Positions 2,124-16,370 of a DNA stretch of 24,000 nt are shown here, piece after piece (within the stretch, counting starts at the first letter, position 1; the number at the start of each line of letters is the position of its first letter). The translations under genes and the position numbers were made by a program. Below the pieces are notes generated by a model. That model had not been told where the DNA came from and searched no databases. It was given only the letters and a program-made list of their open reading frames with translations. Location: contig PFSJ01000019.1 of assembly GCA_002789015.1 (NCBI GenBank), positions 26,012 to 50,011 of the forward strand, written 5' to 3'. The DNA is from a candidate division WWE3 bacterium CG_4_9_14_0_2_um_filter_35_11 (GTDB taxonomy: Bacteria > Patescibacteriota > WWE3 > 2-01-FULL-39-13).

Positions 2124-3503
2124 TTAAACAATCCTCATAAATAAATTTTCTGAATGTATTTCCCCTGTTATGATTTTTTCTATTTTTGATGATGTTTCCG
2201 GCATGATCGGAGCAATCAGACCTACAACCTCTAGGATTTTTTCGATTGCTGTATCTATTACAAGCTTTTGAGCTTCTCCTTCTAACTTCCACGGAGCTTC
2301 TGTGCTGAAATAATCATTAGCTGATCGAATAAGCTCTTGAACACTTGTTACTACTTCATTTAACTTAAAGTCCTCGTATGACATATTTATAAGGGCTACC
2401 CTTTCTTTTAAGGGGCTACCCTCATTTATAAACTTAGCCACTCTCGAAACCAAATTTCCTAATCCATTGGCTAAATTTGAATTATATTTTTCGTCAAACC
2501 ATTTCATACTGACATCACTATCGTCAGAATATGGCATACTTGCAGCAAGTAAATATCTTGTACCATCTACTCCATACCTATCAATCAAGTCTTGCGGAGA
2601 TATCACATTACCCAATGACTTTCCCATCTTGCGACCTTCAACATTATAATATCCATGAACAAAAATTCTTTTTGGCAAAGGTAAATCCAAAGCCAATAAA
2701 AGTGCTGGCCAAATTACAGAATGGAACCAATTATTACCCTTTCCTAAAAAATGCACATCTGCAGGCCAAAACTCTTCCTTATTCCAAAACTTTGTCGCAG
2801 AGTAATAATTCATCAGCGCCTCTATCCATACATAAGTTGTATGTGATGTATCCCACGGAATCGGAATCCCCCACGCAACATTTTGTCTTGAAGCCGACAA
2901 GTCATTCACGCCTTCATTAATTCTAGACAACATTTCGTTCTTCTTATTTTCTGGCTCTACCAAAAGCTCTTTACTGTCGATTAGTTCTTTAACCTTTGGA
3001 ATATATTTCGACAATCTAAAAAAGTAGTTTTCTTCTTCTTTGTACTCAATCTGGTCTGGCCTGTGTTCTGGACATTTTCCATCCACTAAATCTTTTTCCG
3101 ATTTAAATTCTTCACATCCCCAACAATAAATACCTTTGTAGACACCTTTGTAGATATCGCCTTTCTCCTGAAGCTTAATCAATAACTCCTTAACAATTTT
3201 TTCATGTCCAGGTAATGTCGTTCGCATGAATTGATCGTTACTTATATTTAGCTTTTTCCAGTATTCCTGCCATTTTAATGCTAATTCATCTACGAACTCT
3301 TGAGGTTTTTTGGATGCCATTTCTGCTGCCTTTGCAACTTTTTCCCCGTGCTCATCGGTTCCTGTTAAAAAGAAAACCTCCTTGCCTTGCGATCTTTGAT
3401 ATCTTGCAATGATATCTGCAAAAACGGTAGTTCCAGTATGCCCAATATGTGGAACATCATTTGAGTAATAAATAGGAGTTGTAATATAAAAACGCTCTGA
3501 CAT
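2124..3503 (-). CDS. metG: Methionyl-tRNA synthetase (short form, no C-terminal tRNA-binding domain)
   Basis: 459 aa. HIGH motif (VPHIGHTGT), KMSKS variant (RKMGKSLGN), zinc knuckle CWGCEEF..CPEH, WGIPIPWD and the anticodon-domain LGNLVSR helix. Confidence 0.95.
   Translation of the reverse strand: MSERFYITTPIYYSNDVPHIGHTGTTVFADIIARYQRSQGKEVFFLTGTDEHGEKVAKAAEMASKKPQEFVDELALKWQEYWKKLNISNDQFMRTTLPGHEKIVKELLIKLQEKGDIYKGVYKGIYCWGCEEFKSEKDLVDGKCPEHRPDQIEYKEEENYFFRLSKYIPKVKELIDSKELLVEPENKKNEMLSRINEGVNDLSASRQNVAWGIPIPWDTSHTTYVWIEALMNYYSATKFWNKEEFWPADVHFLGKGNNWFHSVIWPALLLALDLPLPKRIFVHGYYNVEGRKMGKSLGNVISPQDLIDRYGVDGTRYLLAASMPYSDDSDVSMKWFDEKYNSNLANGLGNLVSRVAKFINEGSPLKERVALINMSYEDFKLNEVVTSVQELIRSANDYFSTEAPWKLEGEAQKLVIDTAIEKILEVVGLIAPIMPETSSKIEKIITGEIHSENLFMRIV
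2385..2431. repeat. Mini-element copy A: ATTTATAA|GGGCTACCCT-N10-GGGCTACCCTC|ATTTATAA, inside metG
   Basis: Exact 10-mers at 2393-2402 and 2413-2422 (starts 20 bp apart). Perfect 8-bp direct repeats at 2385-2392 and 2424-2431. Core plus one flank is 39 bp, or 13 codons. Confidence 0.8.
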
Positions 3504-3509
3504 AACAAA

Positions 3510-3518
3510 AGTATATCA
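3510..3518 (-). promoter_or_regulatory. Extended -10 box TGATATACT, 6 nt upstream of the metG ATG (3503)
   Basis: The minus strand reads TGATATACTtttgttATG. The same 9-mer precedes the aldolase and GH1 genes. Confidence 0.55.
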
Positions 3519-3528
3519 TCTGCAAATA

Positions 3529-3538
3529 AGGCTACCCC
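3529..3538. repeat. Possible degenerate solo copy of the 10-mer (GGCTACCCCT), intergenic
   Basis: The plus strand reads aaATAAGGCTACCCCTATCTTATgg. It shares GGCTACCC with the GGGCTACCCT unit and is flanked by ATAA and TTAT. Confidence 0.3.
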
Positions 3539-3542
3539 TATC

Positions 3543-3962
3543 TTATGGCTCTAGCCGACGAATTCCAGAAACACCATCAAAGTCCTTATCGTAAGTGTAT
3601 ATATCTTTTAACCCATTTTCATCCATGTATGCAACGTTATATGCATCTTCAAAATCGACCTTCGATTTAGATAAAATACCGAGGGCTTTTATAACAAGGT
3701 ATTTTTCGTCTATTTTGAGATTTGGAATTAGAATTATTGGAAGCAATAATTCAACGATTTCACTACCTTGGATTTTATACAACTGTGGAGATTTTAAAAC
3801 ATAAAACACTTCTGCTATTACTAAAATTGAGGTTCTTAAATTTAGCTTCCCGTCTTTAGCACCTTCAAAAATTTTTTTACACTGTCTAGACTTTAGCTTG
3901 TCATCGCTAGTTAAATATCTTATGAAAATATTTGTATCAACGAATTTCCCTTCTGTGATCAT
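3543..3962 (-). CDS. vapC: PIN-domain toxin, VapC family
   Basis: 139 aa. Acidic PIN residues occur in FVDTNIF, IAEV, FEDAY and YDKDF. Its ATG overlaps the upstream antitoxin stop (ATGA). Confidence 0.85.
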   Translation of the reverse strand: MITEGKFVDTNIFIRYLTSDDKLKSRQCKKIFEGAKDGKLNLRTSILVIAEVFYVLKSPQLYKIQGSEIVELLLPIILIPNLKIDEKYLVIKALGILSKSKVDFEDAYNVAYMDENGLKDIYTYDKDFDGVSGIRRLEP

Positions 3963-4225
3963 TGAGTCTCCTTGCTACTTTTATAATCTTTTGCTATCTT
4001 GACCATCTCTTCTACTGTAAGTAATTTCTCAAGTGGAGGCAAAATACCATATACATCATCTAGAGAATATTTTGAAGAAGTCAAAACAACAGCGCCATCA
4101 TCCTCAATGCTATACACAACAACATCGCCGGATTTAACTCGCAAAGCATCTCTTACAACAACAGGCAATGTGATTTGCCCTTTCGAACTAATTTTTGAGA
4201 CATACGAAGTCTTTACTTTTTTCAT
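3959..4225 (-). CDS. vapB: AbrB/SpoVT-type antitoxin, VapB-like
   Basis: 88 aa. SKGQITLPVVVRDALRVKSGD is a swapped-hairpin AbrB/MazE-type motif. It lies upstream of, and overlaps by 4 nt, the PIN gene. Confidence 0.8.
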   Translation of the reverse strand: MKKVKTSYVSKISSKGQITLPVVVRDALRVKSGDVVVYSIEDDGAVVLTSSKYSLDDVYGILPPLEKLLTVEEMVKIAKDYKSSKETQ

Positions 4226-5266: not shown

Positions 5267-6352
5267 ATGGATTCAACTATTCTTTTTATATCTTCAATGT
5301 TTGTTAGCGTTGCCCTTTTTGGAACGATTTTCTATTTCATGCAACAACAATTCAAAAAACTTCAAGATGGAAATCAAAATGAAAAGAAAGATGAAATCTT
5401 AACTAAATGGCTTGAAAACATGCAAGGAACAATGGATATGCGTCTAAAAAATGTTCAAGATCAACTTCACCAAACAACGTCAACATTAAATGATCGCGTC
5501 GATGAATCTTCCAAAAGCATGAACTTTCGACTTGATAAAGCCGCCGAAGTTATAGGAAATGTCCAAAAAGAATTAGGTTCTATGAGTGAAATCGGACGCG
5601 GCATGAAAGATCTACAAGACTTTTTAAGATCGCCAAAATTGCGAGGCAATATTGGCGAAGAAATACTCAAAGACCTTTTAGAACAAATGATTCCATCCGA
5701 AAATTACATGCTCCAGCACACCTTTTCTACAGGAGATCGCGTTGATGCACTTTTAAAAGTGGAAGAAGGATATATTTCTGTAGACTCAAAATTCCCGATG
5801 GAAAACTTTAACCAAATGTCTCAAGCAGAAAAACAAGAAGACCGAGAAACAATTCGAAAAACATTCACAAGAGATGTCAAAAAACACATTAGCGATATTT
5901 CTAAAAAATACATATTGCCATCTGAAGGAACCGTTGATTTTGCCTTAATGTATATTCCAAGCGAAGCAATTTACTACGAAGTCGTTGTGAACAATCCAGA
6001 ACTCGGAAAATATTCATGGAGTCAAAGGGTTTTACCTGTTTCCCCAAACGTTTTTTACTCATATTTAAAAGCAATATTAATCGGACTTGAAGGCAAAAAA
6101 GTCGAATCAAGAGCAAAAGAAATACTTGCAGCAATAAGAAGCATAAAAGAAGACTCAATCAAATTCTCTGACTCACTTAGGGTTATGACAAAACACATTT
6201 CAAATGCAAAAAACAGCGCTGATGACGTTACAAAGAACTTTGAAAGATTAGATAACAGAATTGGAGGACTCGACAACATAGGACGAATCGGAGACAGAAA
6301 AATTGCTGAAGTAGTTAAAGGAAGCGAACAACCAGAACTAATAGAAAACTAA
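5267..6352 (+). CDS. rmuC: DNA recombination protein RmuC
   Basis: 361 aa with an N-terminal TM helix and a coiled region. LRSPKLRGNIGEEILKDLLEQ and ALMYIPSEAIYYE are typical RmuC blocks. Confidence 0.85.
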   Translation: MDSTILFISSMFVSVALFGTIFYFMQQQFKKLQDGNQNEKKDEILTKWLENMQGTMDMRLKNVQDQLHQTTSTLNDRVDESSKSMNFRLDKAAEVIGNVQKELGSMSEIGRGMKDLQDFLRSPKLRGNIGEEILKDLLEQMIPSENYMLQHTFSTGDRVDALLKVEEGYISVDSKFPMENFNQMSQAEKQEDRETIRKTFTRDVKKHISDISKKYILPSEGTVDFALMYIPSEAIYYEVVVNNPELGKYSWSQRVLPVSPNVFYSYLKAILIGLEGKKVESRAKEILAAIRSIKEDSIKFSDSLRVMTKHISNAKNSADDVTKNFERLDNRIGGLDNIGRIGDRKIAEVVKGSEQPELIEN

Positions 6353-6744
6353 GGTTCTTTTACCTTTATCTCTGAAACCTTTGCGAGTTTTTTATCATAT
6401 GAATAAATCGCATCAACACCGACTTCTATACCCATCGCAATTTCGTACGCATCTATAAATTCGATGTTTTCCTTTACCCAAATATCAAGGGCTAATCTTA
6501 AGGCTTGTTTATTAGTAACTACAGATTCAGATTCGATTACAGCAACTAACATTTCCTCGATGGCATCTGAATCTAATTTATAAAATGAAGATAAAACCCA
6601 TACACATTCGGCGACAACAACATCCAAAAGGAGTACCCTATCATTATTGGAGCTCAATAATTTCTTAACTTTAGTTGCCTTAGCTAGATCATCTTTTACA
6701 AAAAACCGAATAAGTAAATTTGTATCAATTATTGCAAACGCCAT
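6349..6744 (-). CDS. vapC: PIN-domain toxin, VapC family (second copy)
   Basis: 131 aa with IIDTNLL, VAEC, FIDAY and YDKKL. It has the same architecture as the 3543-3962 protein, including the C-terminal EP ending. Confidence 0.85.
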   Translation of the reverse strand: MAFAIIDTNLLIRFFVKDDLAKATKVKKLLSSNNDRVLLLDVVVAECVWVLSSFYKLDSDAIEEMLVAVIESESVVTNKQALRLALDIWVKENIEFIDAYEIAMGIEVGVDAIYSYDKKLAKVSEIKVKEP

Positions 6745-6998
6745 TTCTTTTTGTATAAATCAACTACATGCTCACGCGCAATTTTATGGATATCAATTTC
6801 ATCAATGGGTTTACCACTTTTAACAGAACCCATAACCTCATCCAATGACTTAACTTTTTTCAAAACAACTTCGTTTTTCAAGTTAATTGAAAAGGTCACC
6901 TTATCAGAAGGCTTAATGCCAAGGCTATCTCTTACATATGAAGGAAGCGTAACCTGATATTTGGTTGTAAGTTTAGAAGACGCGTTCATGGCATACAT
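6729..6998 (-). CDS. vapB: AbrB/SpoVT-type antitoxin, VapB-like (second copy)
   Basis: YQVTLPSYVRDSLGIKPSDKV is an AbrB-type motif. The track ORF begins at a TTG at 7025. I prefer the in-frame ATG at 6998 (or 6989), but the start is uncertain. Confidence 0.7.
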   Translation of the reverse strand: MYAMNASSKLTTKYQVTLPSYVRDSLGIKPSDKVTFSINLKNEVVLKKVKSLDEVMGSVKSGKPIDEIDIHKIAREHVVDLYKKKWRLQ

Positions 6999-7033
6999 GA
7001 TACATTGAGGTATACCAAAAGACAATGGGTATA

Positions 7034-13259: not shown

Positions 13260-14489
13260 CTACAGTTTTAATTCGCCAGTTTTACATATTTCCGAATAAT
13301 ATTTGAATGATGGCCGTTTACTTCTTTTTAAAGTTTTCCTATCAACTCTTACCAAACCAAAACACGGCCAAAAGCCATGATGCCATTCATAATTATCTAA
13401 AAGTGACCAATGAAAATATCCTTTCAAATTGACACCTTTGTCTATCGCTTTTACACAAGATTCCAACATATCTCGAATAAAAGACTCTCTTTTTTCATCC
13501 TTATCGTCGGCAAGACCATTTTCGGTCACGAAAATATCAACACCATATTTTTTGAGTGATAAAAGCACATTCTCAAGCCCTTTTGGATATATCCACCAAC
13601 CCAAATCATTTGTAACATCATCTGGATTTTTTGTTTTTAGATTCTTGATTCTATTAGTAAAGTAATAATTTAAGCCAATTACGTCGAATTTATTTTTTAC
13701 GAGGAGGAAGAAAAATCCACTGCCGATGAAATTTAAAAATTTTGCCACTACATGATCTAATGGATTTTTTGATGATTTTGAAACCTCATGCCAGACAATG
13801 TTTTTGACAATTCCTATTATAGGGGCTACCCTTTTTTTAGAAGGGCTACCCTTTATGTCATCATATGCCCTATTATTTGCTCTAGCTAAATTGATTTGCA
13901 CCCACAATGATAAAACAGCACTTACTTTATTTGGCGGCCAAATTCCGTGGAAATATGACATATACACATAAACTTGAGGCTCATTTATTGTCAAAAAGAC
14001 ATCGATTAGATCATAAAATTCTTCTGCGCATTTTTTTGCATATTTCGCAAAATAACTTGGTGCATTAACATTCGTCCACCCACCGATTTTCGAAAACCAA
14101 ATTGGATTTGTGAAATGATGTAGAGTAACAAAAGTTTTCAAACCTCGAACTTTTGCAGCTTTTAGAACCTTTTTGTAGTGCAATATTTCTTTCTCATCAA
14201 AATTGCCTTGAGTTGGCTCTATTCTTGCCCATTCAATAGAAATTCGAACTGCATTGTTATTTAAATCAACACATAAATCAAAATCTTCCTCATATCGATT
14301 ATAGGAATCACATGCAATGCCAGATGCTTCCAATGGGAATTCTCTTTCAGAAACTACACCCGAACTTTGCGAAAAATATTTTTTAGATTGCTCCCATTCC
14401 CACCAATCAGAATTTGTATTATTACCTTCTATTTGATGTGCTGAAGTTGCTGTTCCCCAAATAAAATCTTTTGGAAAAGTATAATTCAC
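13260..14489 (-). CDS. GH1 family beta-glucosidase
   Basis: 409 aa. FPKDFIWGTATSAHQIEG, TINEPQV (acid/base) and FVTENGLAD (nucleophile). GTG start. Confidence 0.92.
   Translation of the reverse strand: MNYTFPKDFIWGTATSAHQIEGNNTNSDWWEWEQSKKYFSQSSGVVSEREFPLEASGIACDSYNRYEEDFDLCVDLNNNAVRISIEWARIEPTQGNFDEKEILHYKKVLKAAKVRGLKTFVTLHHFTNPIWFSKIGGWTNVNAPSYFAKYAKKCAEEFYDLIDVFLTINEPQVYVYMSYFHGIWPPNKVSAVLSLWVQINLARANNRAYDDIKGSPSKKRVAPIIGIVKNIVWHEVSKSSKNPLDHVVAKFLNFIGSGFFFLLVKNKFDVIGLNYYFTNRIKNLKTKNPDDVTNDLGWWIYPKGLENVLLSLKKYGVDIFVTENGLADDKDEKRESFIRDMLESCVKAIDKGVNLKGYFHWSLLDNYEWHHGFWPCFGLVRVDRKTLKRSKRPSFKYYSEICKTGELKL
13817..13856. repeat. Mini-element copy C: TTAT-AG-GGGCTACCCT-N10-GGGCTACCCT-TTAT, inside the GH1 gene
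   Basis: Exact 10-mers at 13823-13832 and 13843-13852. TTAT is present on both sides. The element adds 36 bp (12 codons), read as KGSPSKKRVAPI. Confidence 0.75.
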
Positions 14490-14521: not shown

Positions 14522-14560
14522 TTATGAGGGCTACCCTTGTTTTTTAGGGGCTACCCTTAT
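14522..14560. repeat. Mini-element copy D: TTAT-GA-GGGCTACCCT-N10-GGGCTACCC-TTAT, at the 3' end of the kinase gene
   Basis: Exact 10-mers at 14528-14537 and 14548-14557, with TTAT at 14522-14525 and 14557-14560. The kinase stop codon (14531-14533) lies inside the element. Confidence 0.75.
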
Positions 14561-15205
14561 TGTAAAGATCGTCCCATGGTTTTCCCCGACATTACTTTTC
14601 ACGGTAATCTTTCCACCAAAATCTTTTTCAATAATTGATTTACAAATATAAAGGCCAAGGCCGCAATTATTATTTAATTCCCCTTTTGTCGAAAATCCAT
14701 TTTTAAAAACATCTTTCAAAATTCCTTGTGGAATACCTGGCCCATTATCCTTAATTTCAATTACAACCGACTCTTTAGACCTACCGGAATCAACCATTTT
14801 TACAGCTACAATTATCCAAACATCCTTTCCACCAGCCTCGATTGAGTTCTTGAAAAGATTGCAAATCACTCTTTTGAACTTTAACTTATTTCCATGCAAA
14901 AAATGCTCATTACCGAAGCGGTAGATAAAGTTGTTTTTCTTAAAGTTCCCACACACAGACGATATCGCATCATTAACACCAAACTCCTCATTCTTATTTT
15001 TACCAACGGGAGCGACACTAACTAATTCCTTTATATAACCCAACGATTCATGGATATCACTCAAATTTTCGAGTACATTCTGACTATCAAAATTTAAATT
15101 TCGATTTTTCAGATCTAGCAAACATTCGCACGAAATAATAGCTGAAGTTAACGGACTTTTAATGTCGTGAAGAATCTCGTCACTTTTGCTTGAGGACTTT
15201 CTCAT
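14531..15205 (-). CDS. Histidine kinase core (HisKA + HATPase_c) with no sensor or TM region
   Basis: 224 aa. H-box LHDIKSPL at residue 13, N-box NLFKNSIEA, G1 DNGPGI, F VFKNGFST and G2 GLGLYICK. A GAGGAG Shine-Dalgarno sequence lies 4 nt before the ATG. Confidence 0.85.
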   Translation of the reverse strand: MRKSSSKSDEILHDIKSPLTSAIISCECLLDLKNRNLNFDSQNVLENLSDIHESLGYIKELVSVAPVGKNKNEEFGVNDAISSVCGNFKKNNFIYRFGNEHFLHGNKLKFKRVICNLFKNSIEAGGKDVWIIVAVKMVDSGRSKESVVIEIKDNGPGIPQGILKDVFKNGFSTKGELNNNCGLGLYICKSIIEKDFGGKITVKSNVGENHGTIFTIRVAPKKQG

Positions 15206-16370
15206 AAATCTCCTCTAAATCATATGCTTTCGAATCCCAGCTATAATATTTTTCAATTATCTTTTTTGTTTCTGCATATCTATCAGGCTGAGCGTCAATT
15301 TTTAAAATTGCATCAGCCAATTCCTTAGCATCGATTTTCTCTAGGTATAACAAATTGGGGACATCAACAGTCAACTCAAATCCCGAAGCAACGACTTTGT
15401 TTCCACACGTCAATGCCTCGATTACAACTTTTGGCAATCCTTCGTGACTAGATGGCAATACAAAAAATTCGGCGCTTCTATAATATTTATGAGCAATAAA
15501 GTTGCTAACTTTCCCAAGATATTTGATACGAGATTCCAGATTATATTTTTTTATCAATGGATTTACAATTTCGTCTCTAAAGTCTTCGTCCCAAATACCA
15601 ACCAAAGATAATTTGAATTGAGTTGGCAAATAATGCAAGGATTCGACCAAAACATCAATATTTTTCCTCTTGCTAAGCCTCCCTATATTGAAAATAATCT
15701 TGTCATCACTTGAAAATCCTAAATCAACTTTCTCTCCTTCTTTTGCAAACCTATCCAAACTAACTGAATTTTCAACGACAACGATTGGAACCCTTGGGTT
15801 ATAAAATCTTTTCATTTCATCAACTAAACCAGTGCTAACAGCGATTAAAACTTTGGCGACCTTAGTGGACAGCAAGTCATTAAATTTCCAAATTGGATAT
15901 TCAAAGTATTTTGTCCAAAAATCCAAAGTTTGCCCCTGCTCTAGTGACGTTTCCTCACGACCCTTAATCGATCCATGATTAGTATGAACAACAGGAGTCT
16001 TATCAATAAATCCAAACAGATATTTGTATAACAAAAACCACACGCCCATTTGCTGGTGGTTGTGCACTATATCTATTTTTTTGAAAATCTTAAGGTAAGA
16101 ATAATACGGCAAGACGAAAAGCGATGTTGACAAAAATGGTCCAAATCGCCAAATAGCTCTCGGAAGATTATAAACCGTAATATTATTAGCTAATTTGTAG
16201 CTCAGTTTCCCTTGCTTCAGATTCTTTCCATTTAGATTACCGGTGAGGACGTATATTTGATTCCCCTGTATCTTTCCCTGAGCTATTGTTAAGTCGTATG
16301 GTCCGGGTGATAAACCTTCAGTTTGGACATTCTCGTCGGCAAAATCATAAATTATTCGGAGGATATTCAT
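15180..16370 (-). CDS. GT4-family (GT-B fold) glycosyltransferase
   Basis: 396 aa. C-terminal EGLPKVVIEALTCG (E-x7-E motif). Its length and layout are typical of GT4. Confidence 0.8.
   Translation of the reverse strand: MNILRIIYDFADENVQTEGLSPGPYDLTIAQGKIQGNQIYVLTGNLNGKNLKQGKLSYKLANNITVYNLPRAIWRFGPFLSTSLFVLPYYSYLKIFKKIDIVHNHQQMGVWFLLYKYLFGFIDKTPVVHTNHGSIKGREETSLEQGQTLDFWTKYFEYPIWKFNDLLSTKVAKVLIAVSTGLVDEMKRFYNPRVPIVVVENSVSLDRFAKEGEKVDLGFSSDDKIIFNIGRLSKRKNIDVLVESLHYLPTQFKLSLVGIWDEDFRDEIVNPLIKKYNLESRIKYLGKVSNFIAHKYYRSAEFFVLPSSHEGLPKVVIEALTCGNKVVASGFELTVDVPNLLYLEKIDAKELADAILKIDAQPDRYAETKKIIEKYYSWDSKAYDLEEIYEKVLKQK

What the first reader, a model, noticed from the sequence alone, without database searches (positions are those of the whole stretch)
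2385..2431. Miniature 31-bp element (GGGCTACCCT-N10-GGGCTACCCT) inserted in frame in metG with a perfect 8-bp target duplication
The plus strand reads ATTTATAA|GGGCTACCCTTTCTTTTAAGGGGCTACCCTC|ATTTATAA. Two exact 10-mers start 20 bp apart, separated by a T-rich spacer and bracketed by a perfect 8-bp direct repeat. Core plus one flank is 39 bp, so MetRS stays in frame and reads ..AKFIN[EGSPLKERVALIN]MSYEDF.. just after the LGNLVSR helix of the anticodon-binding domain; the IN dipeptide is itself duplicated. The same pair with the same spacing recurs at 13823-13852 and 14528-14557. That makes six exact copies of a 7-GC 10-mer in an AT-rich 24-kb window, where my rough estimate of the chance expectation is far below 0.01. 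The direct-repeat flanks look like a target-site duplication left by a very small non-autonomous insertion that survives inside essential genes. This behaviour recalls Rickettsia palindromic elements, but the element is several-fold shorter and built from direct rather than inverted repeats. I know of no described family with this sequence.
Basis: seen in the sequence. Interest (0 to 1): 0.85.

Follow-up and report, generated by a model that had tools for sequence, protein, structure and literature searches.

The report
REP hairpin repeat inside metG
The 31-bp motif inside the methionyl-tRNA synthetase gene is one copy of a family of short GC-rich hairpin repeats (REP-like) that pepper this ultra-small WWE3 bacterium's genome. 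The same species carries the matching domesticated tyrosine transposase, so this is a known kind of element seen in a new phylum, not a new class.

Summary
The sequence facts hold. There are six exact GGGCTACCCT copies, in three pairs 20 bp apart, one pair in frame in metG and flanked by ATTTATAA on both sides.

The interpretation needs revising. Each 9-mer GGG-CTA-CCC is itself a near-palindrome, so every "direct" pair folds into one imperfect hairpin.

The same units occur as direct pairs, inverted pairs and triplets in every related WWE3 (CPR/Patescibacteria) locus I fetched. They usually abut stop codons, and TAG often serves as the stop. About ten sit in frame in protein loops.

In the window's own species and two relatives, a single 186-aa Y1/HUH transposase sits beside rplL and is bracketed by these repeats. 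Its predicted fold is closest to E. coli TnpA_REP bound to a REP hairpin. That arrangement is a REP/RAYT "REPtron".

Target-site duplication is not a family trait: 21 of 23 copies show none, and four filled/empty comparisons show none. The metG copy adds no net length to a hypervariable linker. Yet its 20 motif bases stay 19-20/20 identical across four species whose four-fold sites are only about 50% identical.

Verdict: a new member of a known kind, moderately interesting.

The parts
2389..2425 (-). REP-type imperfect hairpin inside metG. It consists of two AGGGTAGCCC units (minus-strand reading) 20 nt apart plus A/T stem extensions, and is translated as EGSPLKERVAL.
   Evidence: Sequence. 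The fold is -16.8 kcal/mol (z = -6.3) on the sense strand, with a G.U/A.A/U.G irregular zone. The motif is 19-20/20 identical in four species.
2393..2402 (+). Unit 1 (GGGCTACCCT as read on the + strand).
2413..2422 (+). Unit 2 (GGGCTACCCT).
2385..2392 (.). Left ATTTATAA flank repeat. Its partner is at 2424-2431.
   Evidence: A flank repeat this long is rare by chance (P about 0.001), but it is not shared by other copies. The ATAAAT on both sides is also present in L110 and L115.
2424..2431 (.). Right ATTTATAA flank repeat.
2124..3503 (-). metG (methionyl-tRNA synthetase, 459 aa), the host gene.
   Evidence: It is 100% identical to the WWE3 bacterium CG_4_9_14_0_2_um_filter_35_11 protein.
13823..13852 (-). 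Second REP pair, in frame in a loop of a GH1 glycosidase (KGSPSKKRVAP).
   Evidence: It is kept in L114. L115 and L116 have a same-length loop without the motif.
14528..14557 (-). Third REP pair, at the 3' end of an HATPase_c (histidine-kinase-like) ORF. The TAG of the downstream unit (14531-14533) is the stop codon. It lies 38 nt upstream of the GH1 start.
   Evidence: L115 has an empty junction here, with 9 nt in place of 53 nt.
3529..3538 (-). Degenerate single unit (GGGGTAGCCT on the minus strand) in the spacer upstream of metG.
   Evidence: The orthologous spacer in L112/L113 holds a three-unit array.
16367..16370 (-). Empty site. The LPG-synthase and GT4 genes overlap here. Relatives L114, L115 and L116 carry a 2-3-unit element (+36 nt) at this junction.

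Best explanation
The element is a REP (repetitive extragenic palindrome)-type hairpin repeat belonging to a REP/RAYT system ('REPtron') of a candidate division WWE3 (Katanobacteria, CPR/Patescibacteria) bacterium.

Anatomy. The basic unit is the quasi-palindrome A-GGG-TAG-CCC-Y, which contains GTAG. In this clade two units sit 20 nt apart with an A/T-rich spacer. On a single strand they fold into one 9-13-bp stem with a central irregular zone. Inverted (perfect) pairs, triplets and centre variants (CAG/CTG, TAA/TTA) also occur.

Shown. The genome of the same species carries one Y1/HUH tyrosine-transposase gene next to rplL, bracketed by these same repeats, and its fold is closest to E. coli TnpA_REP.

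Inferred mechanism. The enzyme recognises the folded single-stranded hairpin and cuts and rejoins it, spreading copies without target duplication. Selection then removes every copy that breaks a gene. On the GTAG strand only one of the three frames is free of TAG, giving GSP...RVA. Surviving intragenic copies therefore look 'in frame' and sit in length-tolerant loops such as the metG linker.

Most copies lie 0-20 nt after stop codons, with GGGTAGCCC on the sense strand. There they probably act as 3'-end or intercistronic RNA stem-loops. This role is inferred from position, from G.U pairing, and from an unrelated hairpin occupying one orthologous site.
For: Family and structure:
- The same 9-mer is present in every related WWE3 locus examined. 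There are 41 GGGNNNCCC-N5-15-GGGNNNCCC pairs in 220 kb, of which 25 have identical centres and 12 have reverse-complementary centres.
- Of 98 single 9-mers, 76 are CTA/TAG, against about 0.3 expected from base composition (my estimate).
- All pairs fold to one hairpin, at -11 to -24 kcal/mol with z mostly -3 to -9.
- Centre variants are compensatory, e.g. GGGCAGCCC...GGGCTGCCC in UvrD and GGGTAACCC...GGGTTACCC.

Position:
- Stop codons lie inside or directly before the element at the HK, rplA, rplJ, RAYT and LPG-synthase 3' ends.

The enzyme:
- L100:3090-3650 matches PF01797 Y1_Tnp at E 3e-13.
- Its only NCBIfam hit is NF047646, REP-associated tyrosine transposase.
- H87, H89 (the HUH motif) and Y147 are invariant in 40 homologues.
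- The AlphaFold model has pLDDT 92. The best PDB match is 4er8_A, TnpA_REP bound to a REP hairpin, at E 6.8e-7 and TM 0.62/0.70. That is about 100-fold better than the IS608/ISDra2 transposases.
- The gene is syntenic and flanked by GGGTAGCCC pairs in L100, L117, L118, L120 and L121.
- Its NCBI accessions (PIR42158, PJC23799) fall in the same two MAG blocks as the window's MetRS (PIR42442, PJC23619).

Turnover and constraint:
- Gain and loss at orthologous sites is seen.
- The metG motif is 19-20/20 identical while four-fold sites are about 50% identical.

Literature:
- REPs are 20-50-nt palindromes with GTAG. They sit near a single-copy tnpA_REP, give TAG stops, and occur inside tRNA-synthetase and uvrD genes (PMC8266576, PMC3733652).
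Against: - GTAG is not an unpaired tag at the 5' foot of the whole hairpin, as in classical REPs. It lies in the irregular zone, or at the foot of the inner stem only.
- The transposase scores 42.5 bits against a curated cutoff of 80 for the NCBIfam RAYT equivalog. It is only 13% identical to 4er8.
- No activity on these hairpins has been shown.
- Only about 50 kb of the window's species was examined, so copy number and single-copy status of the transposase are extrapolated.
- Roughly half of the copies in this clade are intragenic, which is unusual for REPs.
- Filled alleles look like replacements rather than clean insertions. The genomes compared are about 20% divergent, so mobility is inferred and not observed.
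Confidence: 0.8

Rival explanations
1. One reading: a new class of miniature transposon built from direct repeats. It inserts with an 8-bp target-site duplication and added 13 residues to MetRS.
For: A perfect ATTTATAA lies on both sides, which has chance about 0.001. ATAAAT is on both sides in L110 and L115 too. One other copy (L054) has a 7-bp flank repeat.
Against: - Of 23 copies, 21 have flank repeats of 5 bp or less, as chance gives.
- No duplication is seen at four filled/empty junctions.
- The metG linker is not longer than in orthologues, so no empty site exists.
- The units are quasi-palindromes and fold as a hairpin.
- A cognate Y1 transposase is present, and that class makes no target duplications.
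Confidence: 0.04
2. DNA uptake signal sequence. CPR bacteria import DNA through competence pili, and an exact 10-mer is over-represented through biased uptake. It accumulates in permissive coding positions and forms terminator-like pairs, as DUS and USS do.
For: The core is exactly conserved while spacers vary. Copies are stable at orthologous coding positions across species. Both orientations occur in genes. The same core is seen in Saccharibacteria loci.
Against: - Units almost never occur singly and keep a fixed 20-nt (or 17-nt) period.
- Centre variants change in a compensatory way, which preserves structure rather than sequence.
- The repeats bracket a RAYT-like gene.
- No paper in the library reports uptake sequences in CPR.
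Confidence: 0.05
3. Host-selected hairpins or protein operator sites unrelated to the transposase. These would be intrinsic terminators, mRNA-stabilising stem-loops, or paired binding sites for a dimeric DNA-binding protein that share sequence by convergence.
For: - Most copies lie just after stop codons.
- At the rplJ-rplL junction the window's species has an unrelated short hairpin where relatives have the repeat.
- First units followed by T runs match a terminator pattern on the antisense strand.
- The 20-bp period is about two helical turns.
Against: Convergence on an exact 9-mer at dozens of sites, including protein loops, is implausible without a copying process. U-tracts are inconsistent. 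Some copies lie in divergent promoter regions or directly before start codons. This is more a statement about host function than a rival to the REP/RAYT origin, and the two can both be true.
Confidence: 0.1

Closest known systems
REP / BIME / REPIN sequences with their REP-associated tyrosine transposase (RAYT, TnpA_REP; 'REPtron'), e.g. E. coli and Pseudomonas (PMC8266576, PMC3116915, PMC3733652)
   Same: - Short GC-rich hairpin repeats containing GTAG.
- Singles, dimers and groups occur.
- Mostly within 20 nt of the 3' ends of ORFs, often supplying TAG stops.
- Some lie in frame inside genes, including tRNA synthetases and uvrD.
- G.T/G.U pairs occur in the stems.
- One syntenic Y1/HUH transposase gene is bracketed by the repeats, with a fold closest to TnpA_REP (4er8).
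   Different: - GTAG sits inside the stem's irregular zone, not as an unpaired 5' tag.
- The commonest form is two identical units head to tail. Head-to-tail dimers are rare in described families.
- The whole element is only 30-38 nt.
- About half of the copies seen here are intragenic.
- The transposase falls below the curated RAYT equivalog score.
- The host is a CPR bacterium. No paper linking the two turned up in the library.
Rickettsia palindromic elements (RPE)
   Same: Palindromic repeats that persist in frame inside protein-coding genes and are translated as extra loop residues.
   Different: RPE-1 is reported as 100-150 bp (from memory), several-fold longer. The sequences are unrelated. 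The short RPE-4 and RPE-6 are classed as CGTC-type REPs without a known dedicated transposase (PMC3733652).
IS200/IS605-family insertion sequences and their derivatives
   Same: A Y1/HUH transposase that recognises sub-terminal hairpins on one DNA strand and makes no target duplication. Two similar hairpins in direct orientation resemble a minimal left end plus right end.
   Different: Here the gene is single, syntenic with rplL in four related lineages, and not carried within the repeats as a mobile unit. The fold match to IS608/ISDra2 is about 100-fold weaker than to TnpA_REP.
Mobile GC clusters and double-hairpin elements of fungal mitochondrial DNA (PMC4478555)
   Same: Tiny GC-rich hairpin repeats in an AT-rich compact genome. 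From memory, some copies lie inside coding sequences.
   Different: A different domain of life, unrelated sequences, and no associated Y1 transposase.

Membership tests
REP / REPtron (REP + RAYT) | Short (20-50 nt) palindromic repeat able to fold as a stem-loop on a single strand | tested here: met
   All 21 elements folded give one hairpin, at -11 to -24 kcal/mol and z mostly -3 to -9. The length is 30-38 nt.
REP / REPtron (REP + RAYT) | Conserved tetranucleotide (usually GTAG) 5' to the foot of the hairpin | tested here: inconclusive
   GTAG is invariant in every GGGTAGCCC unit. It lies in the central irregular zone of the full hairpin. It precedes the foot only of the inner stem, CCCYT...ARGGG.
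REP / REPtron (REP + RAYT) | Many copies dispersed over the genome, mainly outside genes and near 3' ends of ORFs | tested here: inconclusive
   About 8 pairs were found in about 50 kb of the window's species, and 41 pairs in 220 kb of related loci. Proximity to 3' ends is met. About half are intragenic. No whole genome could be scanned.
REP / REPtron (REP + RAYT) | A tnpA_REP gene, typically single-copy and not itself mobile, immediately flanked by cognate REPs | tested here: met
   The Y1 gene lies beside rplL with a GGGTAGCCC pair upstream and an inverted pair over its stop codon in L100, L117, L120 and L121; L118 has a single unit upstream. All places found share this context. It is in the same MAGs as the window's MetRS.
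REP / REPtron (REP + RAYT) | Transposase is an HUH/Y1 enzyme of the RAYT clade | tested here: inconclusive
   Evidence for: PF01797 passes, HUH and Tyr are invariant, and the best fold match is 4er8 TnpA_REP. Evidence against: NCBIfam NF047646 scores 42.5 bits against a cutoff of 80, and the sequence match to PDB is equally weak for ISDra2 and 4er8.
REP / REPtron (REP + RAYT) | Enzyme binds, cleaves and rejoins the single-stranded REP | not testable with these tools
   This needs a purified-protein assay such as the cleavage/strand-transfer test of PMC8266576.
REPIN (two REPs in inverted orientation) | [quoted passage not shown] | tested here: not met
   All three pairs in the window have identical (direct) centres. 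Inverted pairs exist elsewhere in the family, 12 of 41.
Classical MITE / TSD-generating transposon | Target-site duplication of fixed length at most copies | tested here: not met
   Of 23 copies, 21 have flank repeats of 5 bp or less, like the null. None is seen at four filled/empty junctions.
Rickettsia palindromic elements | Long palindromic repeat (100-150 bp by my recollection; RPE-1 is called a 'longer palindromic insertion' in PMC3733652) of the RPE sequence families | tested here: not met
   The element is 30-38 nt and its host is a WWE3 bacterium.
DNA uptake sequences (DUS/USS) | Single short motif, mostly as isolated copies, with sequence rather than structure conserved | tested here: not met
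   Units are almost always paired at a fixed period, and the centre varies in a compensatory way.

The most novel reading that the evidence does not exclude
The intragenic copies may not be merely tolerated passengers. The metG and GH1 copies would then be held under nucleotide-level purifying selection (or continual RAYT-dependent re-homogenisation) across species-level divergence. That would imply that in these roughly 1-Mb CPR genomes the REP/RAYT system has a host-level role even inside essential coding sequences. Candidate roles are an mRNA or ssDNA structural signal, or a transposase docking site. A distinct RAYT clade with cognate AAGG-NNN-CCTT-type hairpins would also be a general, undescribed feature of Patescibacteria, including Saccharibacteria.
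Probability: 0.25. Interest if true: 0.65.

Novelty: new member of a known kind. Interest (0 to 1): 0.45.

Why it matters
REP/RAYT systems are described mainly in Proteobacteria and are debated as long-lived, vertically inherited 'replicators' or domesticated tools. This one sits in a streamlined CPR genome, with homologous transposases across Patescibacteria. That shows such systems persist even under extreme genome reduction, and it offers a compact model.

It has three practical consequences. It explains odd conserved peptides such as GSP..RVA or GYP..ATL in CPR protein loops. It flags a cause of contig breaks in CPR MAGs. It also gives a testable case of nucleotide-level constraint on a repeat inside an essential gene.

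Tried and rejected
- Genome-collection scan for the pair. It gave 40 hits, nearly all chance or Gly-Tyr-Pro tandem repeats in high-GC genomes. The window's species is not in that collection.
- Metagenome scan. Useful only for the low-GC subset.
- Literature search for the motif string. It returned only primers and unrelated sequences.
- Searches for uptake sequences, REPs or RAYTs in CPR. Nothing relevant was found.
- Near-identical contigs L001-L006 were checked for insertion polymorphism. None exists; the apparent FtsK length difference is a gene-calling artefact.
- A rule that the sense strand always carries GGGTAGCCC. It holds for copies after stop codons but fails for coding copies, where 5 of about 7 direct pairs are in the other orientation. 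That split fits a random-insertion-plus-open-frame filter, which predicts 1:3.
- Rfam on the window. No family matched.
- Terminator reading. U-tracts are inconsistent, and the scan only flags the antisense mini-hairpins.
- Sequence search of the transposase against PDB. The single sequence found nothing, and the profile search was weak. Fold search was needed.
Full report
**Observation**

The plus strand at 2385-2431 reads ATTTATAA GGGCTACCCT TTCTTTTAAG GGGCTACCCT C ATTTATAA. The 10-mer occurs exactly six times in the window, always on the plus strand and always in pairs starting 20 nt apart: 2393/2413, 13823/13843 and 14528/14548. Dinucleotide-preserving shuffles give a mean of 0.25 matches even with one mismatch allowed, and none of 100 reaches six.

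All three pairs lie in minus-strand genes:
- metG (2124-3503), which reads ..AKFINEGSPLKERVALINMSYEDF..
- a GH1 glycosidase (13260-14489), which reads ..DDIKGSPSKKRVAPIIG..
- the last codons of an HATPase_c ORF (14531-15205), which reads ..TIRVAPKKQG*. Here the stop codon is the TAG inside the downstream unit.

The identical metG is found on 23 contigs from ENA, JGI, Logan and NCBI assemblies. Its protein is 100% identical to methionine-tRNA ligase of candidate division WWE3 bacterium CG_4_9_14_0_2_um_filter_35_11.

**What the unit is**

On the coding strand the unit is AGGGTAGCCC. GGGTAGCCC differs from its own reverse complement (GGGCTACCC) only in the central triplet. Two 'direct' copies are therefore also an imperfect inverted repeat.

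ViennaRNA folds every pair, with 8-nt flanks, into a single hairpin. On the GGGUAGCCC strand the stem is GGG / U.G A.A G.U / CCC, extended by A-U pairs. The energy is -16.8 kcal/mol (z -6.3) for metG. The complementary strand folds more weakly in most cases.

One of the three reading frames of AGGGTAGCCC contains TAG. Because the two units are 20 nt apart, two of the three frames are closed on that strand. The only open frame gives GSP...RVA, exactly what metG and GH1 show. The kinase ORF uses one of the closed frames and ends there. 'In frame' is thus what any surviving intragenic copy must be.

**The family**

Scans of public collections returned mostly chance hits in high-GC genomes (Gly-Tyr-Pro tandem repeats). 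They also returned a coherent low-GC set with 10-nt spacers. Fetching orthologous loci through MetRS, GH1 and other proteins gave about 220 kb of WWE3 sequence.

In that sequence, every GGGNNNCCC-N5-15-GGGNNNCCC instance (41 non-identical pairs) has a centre drawn from CTA/TAG, CAG/CTG or TAA/TTA. Twenty-five pairs have identical centres, 12 have reverse-complementary centres (perfect palindromes), and 4 belong to three-unit arrays. Of 98 GGGNNNCCC 9-mers, 76 are CTA/TAG, where base composition predicts well under one (my estimate).

The window's clade keeps a 20-nt period. A more distant clade (L112/L113, MetRS 70% identical) uses GGGGTAGCCCC units at a 17-nt period, often in triplets that allow alternative pairings.

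Variants change both arms together. One example is AGGGCAGCCCCTGC...GCAGGGGCTGCCCT in the UvrD linker of the window's own species and of L109. This points to selection on pairing and not only on sequence.

**Where copies sit**

Copies outside ORFs lie 0-20 nt after a stop codon, or contain it, with GGGTAGCCC on the sense strand of the upstream gene. This holds at the 3' ends of the kinase ORF, the intein-containing gene, the transposase, rplA, rplJ and the LPG synthase. The next gene often starts 6-50 nt later. A perfect (inverted) pair sits between convergent genes (L100 3637, L120 7961).

About ten independent copies are in frame inside proteins, always in loops or linkers: metG, GH1, UvrD, a MurE-like ligase (EGYPFVKGATL), a SufS-like desulfurase (KGYPSKIRATL), a methyltransferase, GT2 and GT4 glycosyltransferases, the intein-containing protein, and C-terminal extensions of the LPG synthase.

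Among coding direct pairs, two are in the GTAG orientation and five in the other. That is what random insertion followed by an open-frame filter (1:3) would give.

*Empty sites.* In an alignment of 32 MetRS orthologues, the stretch after the LGNLVSRVAK helix varies in both sequence and length. The window's linker (17 residues) is among the shortest, and only the closest relative P0005 (16) is shorter. No orthologue reads ..KFIN-MSY... The element therefore occupies part of a variable linker. It did not add 13 residues.

At the DNA level the motif is intact in four lineages (window, L062, L109, L115), decaying in two (L110, L111) and absent in L112.

In GH1 the motif is present in the window and L114. 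L115 and L116 have a loop one codon longer with unrelated sequence.

Three junctions give filled/empty contrasts:
- The kinase/GH1 junction has 53 nt in the window and 9 nt in L115.
- The LPG-synthase/GT4 junction is empty in the window (overlapping genes at 16367-16370) and carries +36 nt in L114-L116.
- The rplJ/rplL spacer holds the repeat in L100 and L118, and an unrelated short hairpin (AAGCG-loop-CGCTT) in the window's species.

None of these shows a duplication.

*Flanking duplications.* Across 23 copies, the longest direct repeat shared by the 12-nt flanks is 8 for metG, 7 for one other copy, and 2-5 for the remaining 21. The null distribution from the window has its mode at 3. The flank consensus ATAA-GGG...CCC-TTAT is a palindromic stem extension.

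The metG duplication is real and probably ancestral at that site, since ATAAAT lies on both sides in L110 and L115 too. It is not a property of the family.

**Constraint**

Between the four motif-bearing metG lineages, four-fold degenerate sites are only 49-52% identical. The 20 motif bases are 19-20/20 identical and the spacer 6-9/10.

In GH1 the two 9-mers are 18/18 identical between the window and L114, with a diverged spacer.

The motif is therefore held at the nucleotide level in a protein segment that is otherwise free to vary. The cause could be selection or repeated homogenisation.

**The enzyme**

L100, the locus richest in copies, encodes a 186-aa protein (3090-3650) that matches Pfam Y1_Tnp (PF01797) at E 3e-13 and 50 bits against a cutoff of 23. 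Its only NCBIfam match is NF047646, 'REP-associated tyrosine transposase', at 42.5 bits, below the equivalog cutoff of 80.

It carries HFH (an HUH motif) and YIHENP. H87, H89 and Y147 are invariant in 40 homologues.

An AlphaFold model (pLDDT 92.3) finds as its best PDB match 4er8_A, E. coli TnpA_REP bound to a REP hairpin, at E 6.8e-7 and TM 0.62/0.70. The IS608, ISDra2 and IS200 transposases follow at E about 1e-4 and TMq about 0.44.

The gene lies at the same place, next to rplL, in L100, L117, L118, L120 and L121. Upstream is a GGGTAGCCC pair, placed directly after the preceding gene's stop; L118 has a single unit there. Downstream, an inverted pair overlaps the gene's own stop, and its last residues, RVAP, are repeat-encoded.

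L120 is NCBI assembly GCA_002774885.1. The protein's accessions (PIR42158.1, PJC23799.1) fall in the same two accession blocks as the window's MetRS (PIR42442.1, PJC23619.1). L120 is 81.6% identical to L100, matching the window-versus-L062 distance. The window's own species therefore has this gene.

Homologues are widespread in Patescibacteria. A Saccharibacteria homologue (L119) is flanked by related palindromes, CAAGGTTTACCCTTG / CAAGGGTAAACCTTG.

**Comparison with the literature**

REPs are defined as 20-50-nt palindromes preceded by a conserved tetranucleotide, usually GTAG. They are present in high copy, mostly intergenic, and associated with a single-copy, non-mobile tnpA_REP flanked by REPs (a 'REPtron'). 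The enzyme cleaves and rejoins single-stranded REPs (PMC8266576).

GTAG REPs cluster within 20 bp of the 3' ends of ORFs and often donate the TAG stop. They show G.T pairs suggestive of RNA function, form dimers and groups, and are found inside genes including tRNA synthetases and uvrD (PMC3733652).

Every one of these behaviours is seen here. The differences are:
- the position of GTAG, inside the irregular zone
- the predominance of head-to-tail pairs
- the very small size
- the high intragenic fraction
- the divergent transposase
- the host phylum

Searches of the held library found no paper connecting RAYTs or REPs with CPR bacteria. That is absence in this library only.

**Mechanism, with status**

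Shown:
- family membership
- hairpin potential
- positional bias
- turnover between species
- nucleotide-level conservation
- a REPtron-like gene arrangement in the same species

Inferred:
- The Y1 enzyme mobilises or maintains the hairpins on single-stranded DNA without target duplication.
- Copies after stop codons act as RNA stem-loops.
- The metG copy is translated.

Not resolved:
- whether intragenic copies arose by insertion followed by trimming, by patch replacement, or by homogenisation of pre-existing sequence
- whether the system is active today

**Verdict**

The finding is genuine. It is best filed as a new member of the REP/RAYT kind in a CPR bacterium, not a new class of element. 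The target-duplication and net-insertion claims are not supported.

Noticed in passing
L001 14216-14245 (same species, about 700 nt beyond window position 1); also L109 9807-9839: A centre-variant hairpin, AGGGCAGCCCCTGC-loop-GCAGGGGCTGCCCT, lies in frame in a variable linker of UvrD (RAAPA..AGAAL). L110 and L112 have unrelated sequence of similar length there.
   Followed up: partly
window 3529-3538: A degenerate single unit (GGGGTAGCCT on the minus strand) lies in the 39-nt spacer upstream of metG. The orthologous spacer in L112/L113 carries a three-unit array.
   Followed up: partly
L112 6854-6896, 10496-10538, 16579-16604: A more distant WWE3 clade uses GGGGTAGCCCC units at a 17-nt period, in triplets (C,T,T or T,C,C). 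The first unit can pair with either of the next two, so alternative hairpins are possible. Each unit plus its flanks is also a 7-bp stem with a 3-nt loop.
   Followed up: no
L119 5900-6000 and 6640-6680 (Saccharibacteria GCA_016191105.1); L093, L095, L076: A Saccharibacteria homologue of the transposase is flanked by CAAGGTTTACCCTTG / CAAGGGTAAACCTTG-type palindromes. Peat-metagenome loci carry 21-bp tandem arrays GGGCTACCCTTGTACTACATA and the palindrome TGTACAAGGG-CTA-CCCTTGTACA.
   Followed up: partly
L120 8430-8463 versus L100 4137-4165 and L118 1690-1718: At the rplJ-rplL junction the window's species has a short unrelated hairpin (AAGCG-TAAAAA-CGCTT) where two relatives have the repeat pair. 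This suggests that a hairpin as such is wanted at this position.
   Followed up: partly
L120 5922-5952 and 5130-7331: The 733-aa ORF just upstream of the transposase has an intein-splicing domain hit. It also carries a perfect GGGCTGCCC...GGGCAGCCC hairpin inside its coding sequence.
   Followed up: no
window 3543-4225 and 6349-7025: There are two MazE/PrlF-antitoxin plus PIN-toxin gene pairs within 4 kb, and a third PIN gene lies just beyond the window (L001 19059-19454). That is dense toxin-antitoxin content for a very small genome.
   Followed up: no
L114 6483-7649 and L116 4757-5929: Relatives have an extra 388-390-aa gene without Pfam hits on the opposite strand between the kinase-like ORF and GH1. 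It is absent from the window and from L115.
   Followed up: no
L120 9000-9130 / L100 4700-4830: A strongly conserved roughly 100-nt block (GTCGCAGTAAGTTCCTAAGACAGCGGAGGCACAG...) lies between the rplA-end repeat and the rplJ start codon. It may be an L10-leader-type regulatory RNA.
   Followed up: no
L043 131-160: A 48%-GC Patescibacteria contig has the same pair at 20-nt spacing, in frame (RGYPEKLGATL), just upstream of the YADD motif of a reverse-transcriptase-like ORF.
   Followed up: no
window 2391-2403, 13821-13833, 14524-14540 (plus strand): On the strand antisense to the genes, each first unit followed by its T-rich spacer matches the simple terminator pattern (mini-hairpin plus T run).
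   Followed up: no
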